A stretch of 64,000 nt of DNA from an uncultured Acidobacteriaceae bacterium (GCA_963846215.1 CAWJVC010000007.1:27402-91401), one strand, 5' to 3'; counted from the first letter of the stretch, positions 8,396-26,824 are shown. The notes: generated from the letters alone by a model not told the origin. A program made the numbers and translations.

Positions 8396-8697
8396 AATCC
8401 TCCGGGAGACGTAAACACGTCAGTCATCCTGAGCACTTCTTTAAGCAAACTGTTTGCCAAACCAACCGAGCAACGCTTGACCGGCGCTGCCTTACGTCCC
8501 GACTGTTCAATCTGCAACCTTTAATCTCGTTTCAAAATTATTGCCGTCACCGCGCTACGGAACTCATTGGTGCGACGTACCGGAAAGTCCGTAGCGTCCC
8601 CATTTCACGGGGATGCCCACTTTCACACTCTCCGAGTACATTTTGCCGAATATTTTCTTGCCGCTCTGAGCAAGGTGGGGGCGTCCGCGGCTGCGCT

Positions 8698-9346: not shown

Positions 9347-11796
9347 TTAGTGCCTTCCTCCGCCGCCCGATCCTCCGCGTCCACCGCGATCTCGTCCGCC
9401 GCCGCCCGGCCTTCCGCCGCGTCCGCCGCGTCCGCGATCCCGCCCTCCACCACCGGGCCTTCCACCGCGTCCACCACGATCTCCGCCATGCGGTCGATCG
9501 CCGTGAGGACGATCTCCACCCACACCAACCGGTGCCGCTCCACCTTCACGATTGAAGTTCGGTTCATCATCCGGGAAATCCCCGCCGCCCTCGATCACCA
9601 TCGATCCAGTCAGCACCGGAGCAGGAGCGGATTCCATCTCGGCGCCTGCGCCGTCCGCCGGCACTGCACCATCTCCGCCGCCCATCTTCGCGCGCTGCTC
9701 TTTCAGAATCGCTTTGCGCGACAAACGTATGCGGTTGCCCTCAACGGCCAGCACCTTCACCAGCACCTGATCGCCTTCTTTCAGTTCGTCGCGAACATCC
9801 GCAATGCGATGCTCTGCCACTTCGCTGATATGCAGCAATCCATCCGTGCCCGGAATGATTTCGACGAACGCGCCGAAATCCGCCAGCCGCGTCACCTTCC
9901 CTAAGTATGTCTTCCCAACTTCCGCCGTCGCCGTCAGGTCTCCGATGATCTGCAGCGCCTTCGCCGCCGACGCCTGATCGCTCGACGCAACTTTCACCAG
10001 CCCGGAATCTTCCACATCGATCTTTACTCCGGTCTGTTCGACGATCGAGCGAATCATCTTTCCGCCCGGCCCGATCAAGTCGCGAATCTTGTCGACCGGA
10101 ATCTGTACGGTGTAGAAGCGCGGAGCGAAATCAGAAATCTTCTCGCGCCCCGATGTAATCACTTCTTCCATCTTTCCGAGAATGTGCAACCGCCCGCGCT
10201 TAGCCTGCGCCAGCGCCTCGCGCATAATCTGCGAAGTGATCCCGGCAACCTTAATATCCATCTGCAGCGCCGTGATTCCATCCTTCGTTCCGGCAACTTT
10301 AAAATCCATGTCGCCGTAATGATCTTCCGCGCCCGCAATGTCGGTAAGGATCGCGTACTGATCGCCTTCCTTCACCAATCCCATCGCCACGCCAGCCACC
10401 GGAGCCTTCAAGGGAACGCCTGCATCCATCAACGAGAGCGACGCTCCACAAACGGTTGCCATCGAGGACGATCCATTCGATTCCAGAATGTCCGATACCA
10501 CGCGCATCGCGTAAGGCCATGACTCTTCCGAAGGCAGCACGCCCGAAATCGCCCGCTCTGCCAGGGCTCCGTGCCCAATCTCTCTACGTCCCGCTCCCCG
10601 CATAAAACCAACTTCACCTACCGAAAATGGCGGGAAGTTGTAATGCAGCATGAAGCGTTTCTTGGCCTCGCCTTCGAAGCCTTCCAGGCGCTGCATGTCG
10701 TCGCTGGTGCCAAGCGTGGTCGTAACCAGCGCCTGCGTTTCGCCGCGCGTAAAGATGGCGCTGCCGTGGGTCCGGGGCAGCACTCCCGCTTCAATCCATA
10801 TATCGCGAACTTCGTCGAAGGCGCGAGCATCGGGACGCCGTTTCTTCTCGAGCACTTTTCGCGGAAAATGCGTTCTCGCAGCGTTTCGAAATATTGCTTG
10901 AACTTCGCCAGCGCTTGCTTCGTCATCTTCCGGGATTTCCGCCTGCAACTTCTTCTTTACATCTTTGACCAGCGCGTAGCTCTCCGCTTTCGGATGCTTC
11001 TTCGTATCGAGAGCGTCCGACAAATCCGCGCCCGCTTTTTTCTTCAGCTGGTCGTAATATTTCTGATCGAATTCCGGCGGCGTGACTTCGCGCTTTTTCT
11101 TGCCGGCCTTCTGGCGCAGTTCGTTGATGGCCGTGCAGATCTTCTTGATTTCGGTGTGTCCGAATTCAATCGCGTCGACCACCACTTCTTCGCTCACTTC
11201 TTTTGCGCCTGACTCGATCATCACAATGCCATCCGCAGTTCCAACGACCATGATGTTCAGCAGGCTCTCGCGCATCTCGTCGTAGGTGGGATTGACCACG
11301 AACTGACCACTGACCTGCCCCACGCGTACCGCGCCCAGCGGACCGAGAAATGGGATATCGGAAATCGTCAGCGCAGCAGGAAGCCGCATTAATGCCCAGC
11401 ACATCCGGATCATTGCTCGCAGTCCGCAGACAGCACGAACGTGATGACTTGCGTCTCGCACTTAAATCCCTCGGCAAACATCGGGCGCACCGGCCGATCG
11501 ATCTGCCGGCTCGTAAGCACTTCGCGTTCGCTCATCCGGCCTTCGCGCTTGATAAAGCCTCCGGGGAATCGTCCGCCGGCGTATGTGTATTCGCGGTAAT
11601 CAACCGTGAGGGGGAAGAAATCAATTCCTTCGCGCGGTTCAGGATTCGCCGTCGCGGTGGCGAGCACCACGTTATCGCCCATTCTTACAACGGCTGCGCC
11701 GTGGGCCTGCTTGGCCAGTTTTCCGGTTTCAAACGACATTTGCTTCCCGCCGGCGAGGTCGACGGTGACACTGCTAACTTCTGGTTTCATATTCAT
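9347..11796 (-). pseudogene. pnp: Polynucleotide phosphorylase, reading frame interrupted (true pseudogene or assembly indels)
   Basis: All domains are recognisable: PH1 ([27 protein letters not shown]), PH2 (LPRTHGSAIFTRGETQALV), KH (IRDLIGPGGKMIRSI) and S1 (GKVTRLADFGAFVEI). They are spread over three frames: 11796-11410, a short [13 protein letters not shown] segment, then 11385-9347. The protein ends in an Arg/Gly-rich tail. Confidence 0.9.
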
Positions 11797-12115
11797 CCTT
11801 ATTTGCTTTGATCAGGAGCGCGGTTGCGCTTTCCAGTTGGCACAGGTAGAGAGGTGGACTGCTTGGATTGATAGGCGCGTAGGCCATGGTGAGCGATTAC
11901 GATGAGCAAGTGCCAACGAGAGCTGCCCATACGTGGGGCTCTCCGAAATCCTTCCGAATGCGCACGGAAAATTGGCTCAATGCTGTACCGGCTTCGTGAG
12001 GAAGGCGGTTCTCATATAGATACGTCTCGGGAAAACGTCTGGACTTCGGCCTGTCCTAGCGCCTCCCGCAATTTCGCAAACCTGCGAAGCACGGGGTACC
12101 AGAATTTTCCCAGGA

Positions 12116-12382
12116 TTACTTGCGGATGCCGAGTTTCCCAATGACCGTCTTATAGCGCTCGGAATCGTATCTCTTGAGGTAGTCGAGCAAGCGACGCCGC
12201 TTGCTGACCAGCATGAGCAGGCCGCGGCGCGAGCCGTGGTCCTTCTGGTGCATTTTGAAGTGATCCGTCAACTGGCCAATGCGTTCACTAATAATGGCGA
12301 TCTGAACCTCCGGACTCCCGGTGTCAGTCGCGTGCGTCTGGTACTGGTCAATGACAGATTTCTTTTGCTCTCTGGCTAGCAC
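12116..12382 (-). CDS. rpsO: 30S ribosomal protein S15
   Basis: 88 aa with [49 protein letters not shown], in the canonical position upstream of pnp. Confidence 0.95.
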
Positions 12383-12511
12383 TAACCTGATGCACTCCTG
12401 TTCTCAGTTTCGATTTATCTTGGTGACAGTAGTGAGGATAACATGTGAGGCGTTCGGGGGTAAAGGCGGGCGGCCAACCATCAGTAAGTCCTCTGAGACT
12501 GCCAGCAGGAT

Positions 12512-12878
12512 TGTCATTCCGAACGGCTTCAGCCGTGAGAGCCTGCCTTGAGCAGAGCCGAAGGGAACCTGCTGTCCCCCTGGACCGGCAATGCTGCGGG
12601 AGCGGGAGTTGTTGGGGTTAGGTCGAATCGCTAAGATTTTGTGCCCGCATAGAGTTTCTTGCACAGGTTGTATGTGACGTCTGCCGCCGCGCGAACTCCA
12701 GCCACGCCCTAAGCTCATGTCATTCCGAACGGCTTCAGCCGTGAGGAACCTGCTGTCCCTTGCAGTGGCAGTCGTAATGGCAGGTTGAGGGGCCGGTAAG
12801 ATTTGCTAGACAGGATTTCTTGCACAGGTCGTACGTGACGTCTGCCGCTGTACAAACTCCAGCCAAGCCCTAAACTCT
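12512..12878 (+). repeat. Two head-to-tail copies (12512-12717, 12718-12878) of a ~160-200 bp repeat unit
   Basis: Both units start with tgtcattccgaacggcttcagccgtgag(g)aacctgctgtcc and contain the ACGGCT-TC-AGCCGT hairpin. Both end with ttcttgcacaggtYgtaYgtgacgtctgccgc...aactccagccaMgccctaaRctc. Copy 1 has a ~25-bp internal insertion. Confidence 0.9.
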
Positions 12879-13353
12879 TGTCATTCCAGCCGTGAGGAGG
12901 AGTGGCAATGGTACAGGAGCGGTGCTATTACGTTTACATCATGGCGAGCAAGAGCCGTGTAATCTACGTCGGCGTGACTGGGTTTCTGATGGCGCGTGTC
13001 TCGCGCCACAAGGCCGGCGAAGGCGGTGCGTTCACACGTAAATATCGCGTGCATCGGTTGGTCTATTACCACTGCTTCTCTAGCGTCGGCGATGCTATCG
13101 CGCGCGAGACTGAGATTAAGGGATGGCGTCGAGAGAAGAAACTAGCGCTGATTCACGCCGACAACCCGACGTGGGAGGATCTTTCGGCTGGCTGGGGCGA
13201 AGCGGCGGTGATGAGGGTGTCTGGAAAAGCAGGTTCCTCACCGCGCTTTCAGCCCGATTCGGAATGACATCCCCTTCAACTTCTTGCACTGATCGCGTGA
13301 GCCATGTGTCGTTGTACAAGTGTCGATGATCCCAGGCCCTCATTATAAATGCA
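12879..13353 (+). mobile_element. Third repeat unit carrying a GIY-YIG nuclease ORF between inverted copies of the repeat head
   Basis: A shortened head lies at 12879-12900 (tgtcattcc-agccgtgaggagg). An inverted head lies at 13229-13269 (gcaggttcctcac...cgattcggaatgaca). The unit tail resumes at 13270-13353 (cttcttgcac...tgtacaa...ggccct). Confidence 0.55.
12908..13267 (+). CDS. GIY-YIG nuclease family protein (small, YhbQ/COG2827-like)
   Basis: YYVYIMASKSRVIYVGVT (GIY...YVG), then RVSRHK, REKKLA and ETEIKGWRREKK. GGAGGAG lies 7 nt upstream of the ATG at 12908, and the GTG at 12902 is also possible. Confidence 0.85.
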   Translation: MVQERCYYVYIMASKSRVIYVGVTGFLMARVSRHKAGEGGAFTRKYRVHRLVYYHCFSSVGDAIARETEIKGWRREKKLALIHADNPTWEDLSAGWGEAAVMRVSGKAGSSPRFQPDSE

Positions 13354-13460
13354 TGTCATTCCGAACGGCTTTATGTGAGGAACCTGCTGTCCGTTGGAGC
13401 GGCAACAGTGTGTGACTTGTGACATCTGACCTTGTGCACGCCTTGAAATCAGCTCAACAT
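13354..13460 (+). repeat. Fourth copy of the repeat head and proximal body
   Basis: tgtcattccgaacggctttatgtgaggaacctgctgtccgttggagcggca... matches the heads at 12512 and 12718. Confidence 0.8.
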
Positions 13461-14024
13461 GGACGAGGCGAAAGTGGTCAAGCAATTTCCCGCCAACGCC
13501 CATAAGTCGTTTGTTGTGTGGATTTTGACTCCTAAGCTCTTTGACATCAAGATTTTGCAGACACTTTTTGCAGACCCCGCGCCAGTCAAGACTTTCAGAG
13601 AGTGGGTGGGAGGGGGTACCCCCGAAAAAGACGCTTAACCAGCATCTTCTGACGAGACAGATGGGAATCGGGATACTCGTCAGCAGCATTATTTCGAGCC
13701 GATATCCACAGAGAACCGTCATTGAAATGTATGCAGACGTTGTGAGTCGTACTGCCCACCCTTGCAGAGGATGCAAGAGTGGGCCTTCCCGCTTGAGGTG
13801 GGCGAACCTGACAGGTGGGAGCTTACCGGTATTTCAGGCGGCGGTCTCCATGTAAGCAAGGGCTGGTCGCAGAGCAGAAACGTTTTTGCCACTGACTTGA
13901 AAACAGCATTCGTCGGAGAGAAAACTGGTGATCAACATGGGCATTCTTCCTGCCTGAATAGTGATCGAGCGAAGAATAGCGTTTCAAAATATTGCGACGT
14001 AGTTAGCGTTGCGACGGTGGGTTG

Positions 14025-14534
14025 ATGAAGAACAAAGACGCCGCGTATTGGATCCAGAGATTAGGGCTCGAAGCGCATCCCGAAGGCGGACATTATCGCC
14101 AGACTTACCGAGCCGATTTGACTTTAGCCAGGAAAAGTTTGCCGACGCAGTTCACCGGGGCGCGGGCAGCCTCGACGGCAATTTATTTCTTGCTTAAGGG
14201 TGATGAATTTTCCGCCCTACATCGCTTGCACTCGGATGAGGTTTGGCATTTTTATGTTGGAAGTTCGCTCGTCGTATCTGTGATCGATGCTGACGGGTGT
14301 TATTCGGAGATTTTGTTGGGCAGTGATCCGGAAGCGGGCGAAGTGTTGCAGGCCGTGGTCAAGGCGGGATGCTGGTTCGGTTCGCGAGTAAAGGATGGGC
14401 ACGGGTTTGCGCTAGTCGGATGCACGGTGGCACCAGGTTTTGATTTTGCAGATTTTGAAATGGGCAAGCGGGCGGAATTAACGCGGAAGTATCCGCAGCA
14501 TCGAAATGTGATTGAGAGCTTGACGCGGGAGTGA
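14025..14534 (+). CDS. Cupin-fold protein (DUF985 / cupin_5-like)
   Basis: WIQRLGLEAHPEGGHYRQTYR...FLLKGDEFSALHRLHSDEVWHFY...GCTVAPGFDFADFE matches that family's pattern. Confidence 0.7.
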   Translation: MKNKDAAYWIQRLGLEAHPEGGHYRQTYRADLTLARKSLPTQFTGARAASTAIYFLLKGDEFSALHRLHSDEVWHFYVGSSLVVSVIDADGCYSEILLGSDPEAGEVLQAVVKAGCWFGSRVKDGHGFALVGCTVAPGFDFADFEMGKRAELTRKYPQHRNVIESLTRE

Positions 14535-26760: not shown

Positions 26761-26797
26761 GGAGTAGTAAGCGGCGGGTGGCGACCGCGAGTAGAGT

Positions 26798-26824
26798 GAA
26801 TCCTTCGCTTCGCTCAGGATGACA
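26798..26824 (-). repeat. Short interspersed repeat head (GTCATCCTGAGCGAAGCGAAGGATTC)
   Basis: It is related to the gtcattccgaacggc... heads at 12.5-13.4 kb and lies in the 92-bp gap between the crotonase and ACP genes. A 12-nt fragment, gtcatcctgagc, also occurs at 8423-8434. Confidence 0.6.

What the first reader, a model, noticed from the sequence alone, without database searches (positions are those of the whole stretch)
12512..13460. Head-to-tail array of four repeat units downstream of rpsO, one carrying a GIY-YIG nuclease gene between inverted termini
Seen in the sequence: units start at 12512, 12718, 12879 and 13354 with the same ~36-nt head (tgtcattccgaacggcttcagccgtgaggaacctgc, containing an ACGGCT/AGCCGT hairpin). 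Units 1 and 2 end with the same ~65-nt tail. In unit 3 the head supplies the Shine-Dalgarno sequence of a 119-aa GIY-YIG ORF. The ORF's last codons are an inverted copy of the head (13229-13269), and the unit tail resumes after it. Units 1, 2 and 4 therefore look like empty, MITE-like derivatives of a nuclease-carrying element. A related head (GTCATCCTGAGCGAAGCGAAGG) occurs at 26798-26824, and a fragment occurs at 8423-8434. Inference: this is a small selfish element family mobilised or homed by the GIY-YIG nuclease, inserting repeatedly at its own boundary. Tandem nesting of this kind is unusual and, as far as I know, mechanistically undescribed.
Basis: partly seen in the sequence, partly recalled or inferred. 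Interest (0 to 1): 0.6.

Follow-up and report, generated by a model that had tools for sequence, protein, structure and literature searches.

The report
Ssn-type nuclease cassette with hairpin-repeat array
The repeats and the small nuclease gene are real, but they are an acidobacterial example of the Ssn nuclease and hairpin-repeat pairing published in 2025, here stacked as one intact and three gene-less copies of the same cassette.

Summary
The array lies upstream of rpsO (minus strand), not downstream. Head 3 is truncated and head 4 has lost its hairpin.

The "head" is one of about 106 dispersed hairpin repeats in this genome. It has the build of the Neisseria NTS/SRM repeat: GTCA tag, TTCC/GGAA stem, CCTG tag. 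The 119-aa GIY-YIG protein is 39% identical to the NTS-flanked ssnA-like gene of N. gonorrhoeae. This is therefore a member of the Ssn/SRM system (Chenal et al. 2025). This scan has reached the same verdict before, including on another acidobacterial genome.

New details:
- The published SRM search pattern misses these repeats.
Units 1, 2 and 4 are gene-less 5' modules that keep remnants of the ribosome site and start codon.
- Three nuclease paralogs pair with three repeat subtypes.
- Both the cassette and single repeats show presence/absence differences between species.
- Repeats persist in genomes that have no such nuclease.
- The tagged strand lies on the locally C-rich strand (69 of 84 loci).
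- The locus sits on a sharp, conserved, origin-like GC-skew jump.

Whether the nuclease moves the repeats remains unproven.

The parts
12116..12382 (-). rpsO (ribosomal protein S15). It diverges from the array and is not part of the element; it marks the left flank.
   Evidence: PF00312 E=4e-35. pnp lies downstream of it on the minus strand.
12512..12577 (+). Head 1. Composite SRM-like hairpin repeat of TTCC type, with a nested 25-nt second hairpin (AGCCTGCCTTGAGCAGAGCCGAAGG) inserted before the GAACCTGCTG tag.
   Evidence: The same composite build is seen in L004 and at two other sites in the genome.
12580..12605 (+). Remnant of the cassette's Shine-Dalgarno/start region in module M0 (CTGGACCGGCAATGCTGCGGGAGCGG).
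   Evidence: Aligns with the ORF starts of L004 and L001 (alignment A1). Absent after dispersed repeats.
12630..12717 (+). TTTCTTGCACAGG .. GTGACGTC .. GCCGC .. CCCTAAGCTCA.
   Evidence: 88% identical to leader 2. The same leader precedes orthologous cassettes in other genomic contexts.
12718..12759 (+). Head 2. Intact SRM-like hairpin: TGTCA-TTCC-GAA-CGGCT-TCA-AGCCG-TGA-GGAA-CCTGCTGTCC.
   Evidence: Folds as a two-tier hairpin, -7.9 kcal/mol, z=-2.0.
12760..12784 (+). Start-region remnant of module M1 (TTGCAGTGGCAGTCGTAATGGCAGG).
   Evidence: Alignment A1.
12796..12878 (+). Leader copy 2. This is the leader of the intact cassette.
12879..12899 (+). Head 3. Truncated repeat (10 nt of the 5' arm and the 3' tag are deleted) fused to the Shine-Dalgarno sequence GGAGG.
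12908..13267 (+). 119-aa single-domain GIY-YIG nuclease of the Ssn family. Codons 105-119 are encoded by the inverted repeat.
   Evidence: PF01541. 39% identity to the N. gonorrhoeae ssnA-like frame. dN/dS 0.05-0.22 in the domain.
13223..13269 (-). Inverted, intact SRM-like hairpin that forms the 3' end of the cassette and supplies the TGA stop.
   Evidence: Present at the same place in all orthologs.
13281..13353 (+). Leader copy 3 (diverged), starting a second, gene-less cassette module.
   Evidence: 72% match to the leader core. Alignment A1.
13354..13409 (+). Head 4 (distal stem lost) plus start-region remnant TTGGAGCGGCAACAG.
26797..26824 (-). Dispersed repeat of the TCCT subtype between the crotonase-like gene and the ACP gene.
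   Evidence: Present in 5-6 same-genus genomes and absent in 5 at this same gap.

Best explanation
The locus is an Ssn-type cassette.

**What it is made of**
- A small single-domain GIY-YIG nuclease gene sits between inverted copies of its cognate DNA hairpin repeat. The repeat is a divergent Ssn-related motif: TGTCA tag, TTCC/GGAA basal stem, variable covarying distal stem, CCTGCTG tag.
- A conserved leader of about 100 nt precedes the gene.
- Three further copies of the cassette's 5' module (leader, hairpin, remnant of the ribosome site and start codon) are stacked head to tail around the intact one. Together they resemble a neisserial mosaic (NIME) array.

**How it most likely works (by analogy with SsnA, inferred)**
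- The protein binds the folded hairpin on single-stranded DNA and cuts a few bases 5' of the GTCA tag.
- It would do this at its own flanks and at the roughly 50 dispersed cognate copies.

**How the array most likely arose (inferred)**
- The array grows and shrinks by recombination, repair or repeated cassette insertion at these hairpins.
- The gene is lost from all copies but one.

**Shown**: the gene is old, under purifying selection and mostly inherited vertically, but it has changed place within the genus.
For: **Family link**
- The protein is 39% identical (E=7e-20 pairwise) to a GIY-YIG frame in N. gonorrhoeae that is surrounded by 8 NTS copies in 1 kb.
- It is 42% identical to a 94-aa protein bracketed by exact inverted NTS copies.
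- It scores only 28 bits against the Neisseria UPF0213-type protein.

**Repeats**
- About 106 full copies fall into three subtypes with matching stem covariation and subtype-specific 3' tags.
- The distal stems covary.
- Only 35% of copies lie inside crudely called ORFs, against 85% coding sequence.

**Pairing of nuclease and repeat**
- All 17 loci with proteins at least 69% identical to ours carry TTCC-type repeats. Nearly all of the 16 loci in the 44-53% clade carry TCCT-type repeats.
- The three paralogs of this genome sit beside three different subtypes.

**Cassette limits**
- Homology between different genomic contexts runs from the leader to the end of the inverted repeat.

**Selection**
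- dN/dS is 0.05-0.22 in the domain.
- The last 15 codons have pS about equal to pN, and far lower pS than the domain. They evolve as a DNA element.

**Biochemistry of the family**: PMC11893778.
Against: - The published SRM search pattern matches none of these repeats and is not enriched here: 25 hits against 28-44 in shuffles.
- The biochemically studied N. meningitidis SsnA sequence itself was not available. The N. gonorrhoeae locus was taken to be ssnA from its NTS flanks and size.
- CDD family cd10448 could not be assigned with these tools.
- No cleavage data exist for this protein.
- The 5' repeat next to the gene is truncated, so the cassette may no longer be intact as a unit.
- Five same-genus genomes without any small GIY-YIG gene keep 11-85 repeat copies. 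The repeats therefore do not currently depend on the nuclease.
Confidence: 0.72

Rival explanations
1. One reading: an autonomous selfish element. The GIY-YIG nuclease itself mobilises or homes the cassette and its gene-less derivatives. The element inserts repeatedly at its own boundary, and this builds the tandem array.
For: - Cassettes 70-83% identical in protein lie in more than 10 different genomic contexts.
- Only 2 of 28 species carry the cassette upstream of rpsO.
- Single repeats are present or absent at an orthologous gap, with different subtypes at the same site.
- Module M0 has the composite head of the L004 lineage, while M1 and M2 resemble the L001 lineage. This suggests separate arrivals rather than local duplication.
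- A head is present or absent between leader and ORF, with TTG on both sides.
- Arrays are concentrated beside nuclease genes.
Against: - No strand-joining activity is known for GIY-YIG enzymes.
- The gene-less units lack the inverted end.
- No consistent target duplication was found.
- Synonymous sites are near saturation and the rpsO-linked copies are syntenic, which points to mostly vertical descent.
- Repeats are abundant in nuclease-free genomes.
Confidence: 0.22
2. The array is only a by-product of hairpin-prone DNA. Replication slippage and unequal recombination between direct repeats duplicated the region next to the gene, and the nuclease plays no part in building it.
For: - Short-period arrays of half-hairpins (22-46 nt) occur far from any nuclease gene.
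- A 45-nt array of 16.6 copies at 98% identity in G048 looks like recent slippage.
- In G004 the 30-34-nt units break at the hairpin apex.
Against: - Long units that contain the leader and start remnants occur only beside nuclease genes. Two independent paralogs show them.
- Units 1 and 2 differ in head build.
- The units are too diverged for recent slippage.
Confidence: 0.3
3. The repeats are host elements with a function of their own (REP-like: RNA stability, termination, nucleoid binding). The nuclease gene merely lies among them.
For: - Most copies are intergenic.
- They persist in genomes without the nuclease.
Against: - The pairing of nuclease clade with repeat subtype is strict.
- There is no orientation preference relative to neighbouring genes (53 against 55), which argues against an RNA-level role.
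- No T-run follows the hairpin and no terminator-like site was found.
Confidence: 0.1
4. The protein is a UPF0213/Slx1-like repair nuclease unrelated to the repeats.
For: The best solved-structure match is UPF0213 protein BH0048 (1zg2, E=1.4e-7).
Against: - It is much closer to NTS-flanked proteins (72 bits) than to the Neisseria UPF0213-type protein (28 bits).
- It shares the C-terminal motif IK.W.R..K..LI...NP.W.DL with the NTS-flanked proteins.
Confidence: 0.03

Closest known systems
Ssn nucleases with Ssn-related motifs (SsnA/NTS of Neisseria meningitidis; Chenal et al., Nat Commun 2025, PMC11893778)
   Same: - A single-domain GIY-YIG protein of about 95-120 aa.
- The gene is bracketed by inverted hairpin repeats with a GTCA tag, a TTCC..GGAA stem and a pyrimidine-C tag.
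- Tens to hundreds of mostly intergenic copies.
- 39% identity to the NTS-flanked Neisseria gene.
   Different: - The inner stem is GAGCG/CGA, or a long variable stem, instead of CGCG/GCGG, so the published search pattern fails.
- The 3' repeat is translated as the protein's tail and supplies the stop codon.
- A conserved leader precedes the gene.
- Three cognate pairs coexist in one genome.
- The host is a soil acidobacterium, and natural transformation has not been examined in it.
Neisserial intergenic mosaic elements (dRS3 repeats separated by RS elements; PMC1797815)
   Same: - Arrays of hairpin repeats separated by units of 50-200 bp.
- Repeat number differs between syntenic arrays.
   Different: - Here the spacers are not a dispersed family. 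They are copies of the nuclease cassette's own leader and start region, found only at this locus in the genome.
- Heads are mostly in direct rather than alternating orientation.
REP/REPIN elements with RAYT genes, and CGTC-tagged REPs (PMC3337134; Di Nocera et al. 2013, PMC3733652)
   Same: - A single-copy gene is flanked by inverted palindromic repeats that are dispersed through the genome.
- Persistence is long and vertical.
- A tagged hairpin gives each repeat an orientation.
   Different: The enzyme is a GIY-YIG nuclease, not an HUH tyrosine transposase. No transposition chemistry is known for it.

Membership tests
Ssn nuclease family (Chenal et al. 2025) | Single-domain GIY-YIG protein of about 90-120 residues | tested here: met
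   PF01541 covers residues 8-80 and there is no other Pfam or NCBIfam match. The last 15 residues are encoded by the repeat.
Ssn nuclease family (Chenal et al. 2025) | Sequence homology to Neisseria SsnA | tested here: met
   - 39% identity over 85 aa, E=7e-20, to the NTS-flanked frame in N. gonorrhoeae.
- I identified that frame as ssnA from its flanks and size.
- The N. meningitidis protein itself was not compared.
Ssn nuclease family (Chenal et al. 2025) | Assignment to CDD cd10448 (GIY-YIG_unchar_3) | not testable with these tools
   No CDD search was available.
Ssn nuclease family (Chenal et al. 2025) | Gene flanked on both sides by hairpin repeats | tested here: met
   Heads lie upstream on the plus strand and an inverted head lies at the ORF end. 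The same holds in all orthologs.
Ssn nuclease family (Chenal et al. 2025) | Repeats fit the published degenerate SRM search sequence | tested here: not met
   None of six tested heads match. The genome count is 25, against 28-44 in shuffles.
Ssn nuclease family (Chenal et al. 2025) | Site-specific cleavage of single-stranded DNA 5' of the repeat, with no activity on dsDNA or RNA | not testable with these tools
   Needs biochemistry.
Neisserial intergenic mosaic elements | Hairpin repeats alternating with 50-150-bp repeat-sequence elements that form dispersed families | tested here: not met
   Hairpin and spacer do alternate (units of 161-206 nt). But the spacer (leader) has no other copy in the genome.
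MITE or insertion sequence with terminal inverted repeats | Both inverted termini present on the gene-less units, plus a target-site duplication | tested here: not met
   Units 1, 2 and 4 have no inverted head. A possible TTG duplication at one polymorphic head is inconclusive.
REP/RAYT (REPIN) systems | HUH Y1 tyrosine transposase as the associated gene | tested here: not met
   The gene is GIY-YIG.
GIY-YIG homing endonucleases (I-TevI type) | A separate DNA-binding domain, and residence in an intron or inside a host gene | tested here: not met
   The protein has a single domain and the gene is intergenic.
UPF0213 / Slx1-like stand-alone nucleases | Closest similarity to UPF0213 members | tested here: not met
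   28 bits against the Neisseria UPF0213-type protein, compared with 72 bits against the NTS-flanked protein. The match to 1zg2 is only E=1.4e-7.

The most novel reading that the evidence does not exclude
Ssn cassettes and their repeats are true single-strand-DNA mobile elements.
- They insert in one orientation relative to whichever strand is more often single-stranded.
- They prefer a small set of conserved, origin-like strand-asymmetry jump points in the chromosome.
- The stacked gene-less modules are footprints of repeated cassette insertion at its own boundary.

This would define a GIY-YIG-driven counterpart of the IS200/IS605-REP world.
Probability: 0.18. Interest if true: 0.78.

Novelty: new member of a known kind. 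Interest (0 to 1): 0.4.

Why it matters
**Reach of the family.** The Ssn/SRM pairing extends into soil Acidobacteria in a form that the published search pattern cannot see. Surveys based on that pattern therefore undercount the family.

**A set of enzymes to test.** This locus and its relatives give a natural panel of three nuclease/hairpin pairs in one genome. They can be used to test how such a small enzyme reads its site.

**Bearing on an open question.** Chenal et al. left open whether repeat-gene-repeat units are, or were, mobile. Evidence here that bears on it:
- presence/absence differences between species;
- conserved cassette limits across different genomic contexts;
- gene-less cassette relics;
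- a strand-orientation rule for the repeats.

**Clue to in vivo behaviour.** The orientation rule, and the position on a conserved origin-like skew jump, are not in the paper. If general, they would say how a single-strand nuclease and its sites coexist with chromosome replication.

Tried and rejected
**Searches that found nothing**
- Rfam at E<=1 over 11500-14500 gave no match.
- NCBIfam gave no match.
- The sigma-70 promoter scan found no site in the leader.
- Tandem Repeats Finder called no array in the window.

**Tests that failed or were weak**
- The published SRM pattern failed on all heads.
- My first census by GTCAT+N4 was mis-phased. I redid it.

**Attempts to reach Neisseria SsnA**
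- The commensals N. lactamica NS19 and N. mucosa hold only a UPF0213-type 91-aa protein and no homolog of ours.
- A homolog search with the NTS-flanked protein L182 returned no Neisseria names.
- The link came instead from N. gonorrhoeae records in the plasmid collection.

**Explanations tested and dropped**
- Gene orientation does not explain the strand bias.
- The bias is not seen in 94 exact-NTS loci from many phyla, although local skew is a weak proxy there.
- The idea that the cassette causes the skew jump was dropped: the jump is present in relatives without the cassette.
- No remnant of the neighbours seen in relatives (Gp49, HTH, PDDEXK_5) was found in 13461-14021.

**Unavailable**
- The supplements of PMC11893778 are not held.

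Full report
**1. What is in the sequence**

Heads start at 12512, 12718, 12879 and 13354.
- Heads 1 and 2 share 28 identical bases.
- Only head 2 is the full 36-42-nt element TGTCA-TTCC-GAA-CGGCT-TCA-AGCCG-TGA-GGAA-CCTGCTGTCC. As single-stranded DNA it folds into a two-tier hairpin (-7.9 kcal/mol, z=-2.0).
- Head 1 carries a nested 25-nt second hairpin.
- Head 3 lacks the 5' arm and the 3' tag.
- Head 4 has lost the distal stem.

An intact inverted head lies at 13223-13269. It overlaps the last codons of a 119-aa GIY-YIG ORF (12908-13267; PF01541, E=6e-13). The complement of its GTCA tag supplies the TGA stop.

The tails of units 1 and 2 are 88% identical over 72 nt.

rpsO is on the minus strand (12116-12382). 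The array is therefore upstream of rpsO and divergent from it, not downstream.

Tandem Repeats Finder reports nothing here. The units are old and diverged.

**2. Re-phasing the units**

I aligned orthologous cassettes from other genomes, several of them in unrelated genomic contexts. The conserved unit is, in order:
- a leader of about 100 nt (AAGATTTTG .. TTTTGCACAGG .. GTGACGTC .. GCCGCTG .. CCCTAAACTCTT);
- a plus-strand head;
- GGAG, a 5-nt spacer and the ATG;
- the ORF;
- the inverted head.

Read this way, the window holds four cassette 5' modules:
- M0, about 12455-12654;
- M1, 12655-12815;
- M2, 12816-13271, which carries the ORF;
- M3, 13272-13450.

Each module has a head followed by a recognisable remnant of the ribosome site, the start codon and the first codons (alignment A1). 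Dispersed repeats elsewhere in the genome have neither the leader nor this remnant, and the leader has no other copy in the genome. Units 1, 2 and 4 are therefore gene-less relics of the cassette. They lack the inverted end, so they are not MITE-like.

M0 has the composite head seen in the L004 lineage. M1 and M2 resemble the L001 lineage.

A second paralog, at C9:1255816, shows the same design. Six 145-nt units each hold leader, repeat and ATG plus two codons, and the start codon lies inside the repeat's 3' tag.

**3. The repeat family in this genome**

GTCATYCYGA occurs 165 times against about 27 expected. About 106 copies have the matching 3' stem. They fall into three main subtypes:

| Subtype | Stem pair | 3' tag | Copies |
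|---|---|---|---|
| TTCC | TTCC/GGAA | CCTGCT | 50 |
| TCCT | TCCT/AGGA | CCTATG | 31 |
| TCCC | TCCC/GGGA | CCTTGG | 22 |

Other features:
- Distal stems vary but stay complementary. A stem of at least 4 bp is formed with the copy's own partner in 58% of cases, against 26% with another copy's partner.
- Only 35% of copies lie inside crudely called ORFs, against 85% coding sequence.
- Many loci hold short-period arrays of half-hairpins.

The genome (70% complete) has three small GIY-YIG genes. Each sits beside a different subtype.

**4. The genus**

Distribution of the nuclease:
- 35 of 41 same-genus genomes have 1-5 such genes.
- In five of the six genomes without one, the only GIY-YIG hit above the Pfam cut-off is UvrC-sized.
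- Four of these nuclease-free genomes were counted, and they still carry 11-85 copies of GTCATYCYGAGCG. This genome has 62.

Association with repeats:
- Every nuclease locus examined has heads within about 250 nt.
- All 17 loci whose protein is at least 69% identical to ours carry TTCC-type heads.
- Nearly all of the 16 loci in the 44-53% clade carry TCCT-type heads.

Location of the cassette:
- The clade of our protein lies next to rpsO in four loci and in more than ten other contexts.
- Among 28 species with readable sequence upstream of rpsO, only this genome and G018 have the cassette there.
- The number and orientation of upstream heads differ between the rpsO-linked copies.

Single repeats: the repeat at 26797-26824 fills a gap that holds repeats of different subtypes in five or six genomes. 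In five other genomes the same gap is a repeat-free 25-43-nt stretch.

Gain, loss and relocation are therefore shown on the scale of species. Exact insertion boundaries are not shown.

**5. The protein**

- Orthologs are mostly exactly 119 aa.
- The domain (codons 1-104) has dN/dS of 0.05-0.22, with synonymous sites near saturation.
- Codons 105-119 have pS about equal to pN, and far fewer synonymous changes than the domain. They are conserved as DNA, not as protein.
- The best solved relative is a UPF0213 protein (1zg2, E=1.4e-7).
- The protein is much closer to small GIY-YIG proteins that are flanked by canonical NTS repeats:
  - 42% identity (72 bits) to a 94-aa protein bracketed by exact inverted NTS copies;
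  - 39% identity (E=7e-20) to a frame in N. gonorrhoeae surrounded by eight NTS copies in 1 kb.
- It scores only 28 bits against the Neisseria UPF0213-type protein.

**6. What is known**

Chenal et al. (PMC11893778) showed the following:
- SsnA of N. meningitidis is a 94-aa single-domain GIY-YIG enzyme.
- It binds the NTS hairpin (CGTCATTCCCGCGMAVGCGGGAATCYRG) on single-stranded DNA only and cuts just upstream of it.
- Homologs in many phyla are flanked by such repeats.
- The repeat-gene-repeat layout resembles an insertion sequence, possibly a domesticated one.

Our repeats share the tag, the basal stem and the 3' pyrimidine-C with the NTS. They nevertheless fail the paper's degenerate search pattern, which is not enriched in this genome.

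[quoted passage not shown] Their length varies between strains (PMC1797815). Di Nocera et al. (PMC3733652) noted that CGTC-tagged palindromes lack a dedicated transposase.

Earlier follow-ups in this scan reached the same Ssn/SRM verdict on other DNA, including another acidobacterial genome.

**7. Mechanism**

*Shown*
- Homology to the Ssn family.
- Cognate pairing of nuclease clade and repeat subtype.
- Purifying selection on the domain.
- Cassette limits.
- Gene-less relics.
- Presence/absence differences between species.

*Inferred by analogy*
- The protein cuts single-stranded DNA 5' of the GTCA tag of its own subtype.

*Inferred and weak*
- Arrays arise from repair, recombination or re-insertion at these hairpins, after which the gene is lost from all copies but one.

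**8. An unexpected strand rule**

*Orientation of the repeats*
- In 84 independent repeat loci, the GTCA-tag strand lies on the locally C-rich strand 69 times against 15 (±5 kb, repeat excluded, p=2e-9).
- Gene orientation does not explain this: 53 flanking genes are on the same strand and 55 on the opposite strand.
- The same direction is seen in eight other genomes of the genus: 19 against 7.
- It is not seen in 94 exact-NTS loci from many phyla. The test is weak there.

*GC-skew jumps*
- The genome has nine sharp jumps in third-codon-position GC skew. All nine are origin-like (minus to plus) and none is terminus-like.
- The skew reaches ±0.4-0.6 regardless of gene strand and decays over 30-50 kb.
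- One jump falls exactly at this locus (window about 12.3 kb). Another falls at the paralog that has the six-unit array.
- The jump at pnp-rpsO is conserved in relatives that lack the cassette, and in a genome with no Ssn gene at all. The cassette therefore does not cause it.
- dnaA lies about 12 kb from a further strong skew reversal, seen in the raw 10-kb windows on contig C6.

*Possible meaning*
- If the C-poor strand is the one more often single-stranded, the presumably cleavable strand sits on the protected strand.
- That would fit either selection against self-cutting or strand-specific insertion.
- The cause of the sawtooth skew pattern is unexplained.

**9. Verdict**

The kind of system is already published, and mobilisation by the nuclease remains unproven.

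I file this as a new member of a known kind. Its additions are:
- a repeat variant the published pattern misses;
- arrays made of cassette relics;
- three cognate nuclease/repeat pairs in one genome;
- persistence of repeats without the nuclease;
- the strand rule.

Expression, strain-level polymorphism and read-depth tests were therefore not possible.

Noticed in passing
window about 12000-13500 (G000:C7:39746), plus 8 other sites in the genome: There are nine sharp jumps of GC3 skew, all origin-like (minus to plus) and none terminus-like. The skew is independent of gene strand and decays over 30-50 kb. The jump at pnp-rpsO is conserved in relatives without the cassette. The sawtooth resembles multi-origin skew profiles, and its cause is unknown.
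   Followed up: partly
whole genome G000 (84 repeat loci): The GTCA-tag strand of the repeats lies on the locally C-rich strand in 69 loci against 15. The split is 19 against 7 in eight relatives. Gene orientation does not explain it, and the Ssn paper does not mention it.
   Followed up: partly
G000:C9:1255039-1256091: A second Ssn-like gene is preceded by six 145-nt tandem units. Each unit holds leader, repeat and ATG plus two codons. The gene's start codon lies inside the repeat's 3' tag, and there is no downstream inverted repeat.
   Followed up: partly
L001:5656-6255, L002:5378-5959, L004:2710-3402; G000:C9:917873-918262: A PD-(D/E)XK gene (Pfam PDDEXK_5, PF11645) lies next to the cassette in L001, L002 and L004. 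Flank clustering suggests this holds for up to 9 of 17 loci. The single homolog in this genome sits exactly on another skew jump.
   Followed up: no
L032:665-1411 (G048): A 45-nt array of 16.6 copies at 98% identity, made of a half-repeat plus spacer, lies directly upstream of an orthologous nuclease gene. It looks like a very recent expansion.
   Followed up: no
window 12540-12564; L004:3921-3990; G000:C10:49198 and C12:299462: These are composite repeats. A 25-nt second hairpin (AGCCTGCCYTGAGC..GCCGAAGG) is nested inside a TTCC-type repeat just before its 3' stem.
   Followed up: no
window 9347-11796 (minus strand): The pnp gene reads as two overlapping ORFs in different frames (11410-11796 and 9347-11461), whereas relatives have one gene of about 818 aa. 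This is either a frameshift or an assembly error.
   Followed up: no
L190:383-673 (N. gonorrhoeae NZ_CP119142.1): The NTS-flanked ssnA-like frame has no ATG, GTG or TTG start before residue 26 of the printed frame (L190:458). The record is filed as a plasmid but is chromosome-sized at 2.17 Mb.
   Followed up: no
L181:889-3224: An alphaproteobacterial Ssn-like gene sits in an array of 24 exact NTS copies in 2.3 kb, mostly in alternating orientation and with a period of about 160-170 nt. Large arrays beside the gene are therefore not special to Acidobacteria.
   Followed up: no
window 13461-14021: These 560 bp between the array and the cupin gene have no ORF, no Rfam match and no similarity to the genes that follow the cassette in relatives.
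   Followed up: partly
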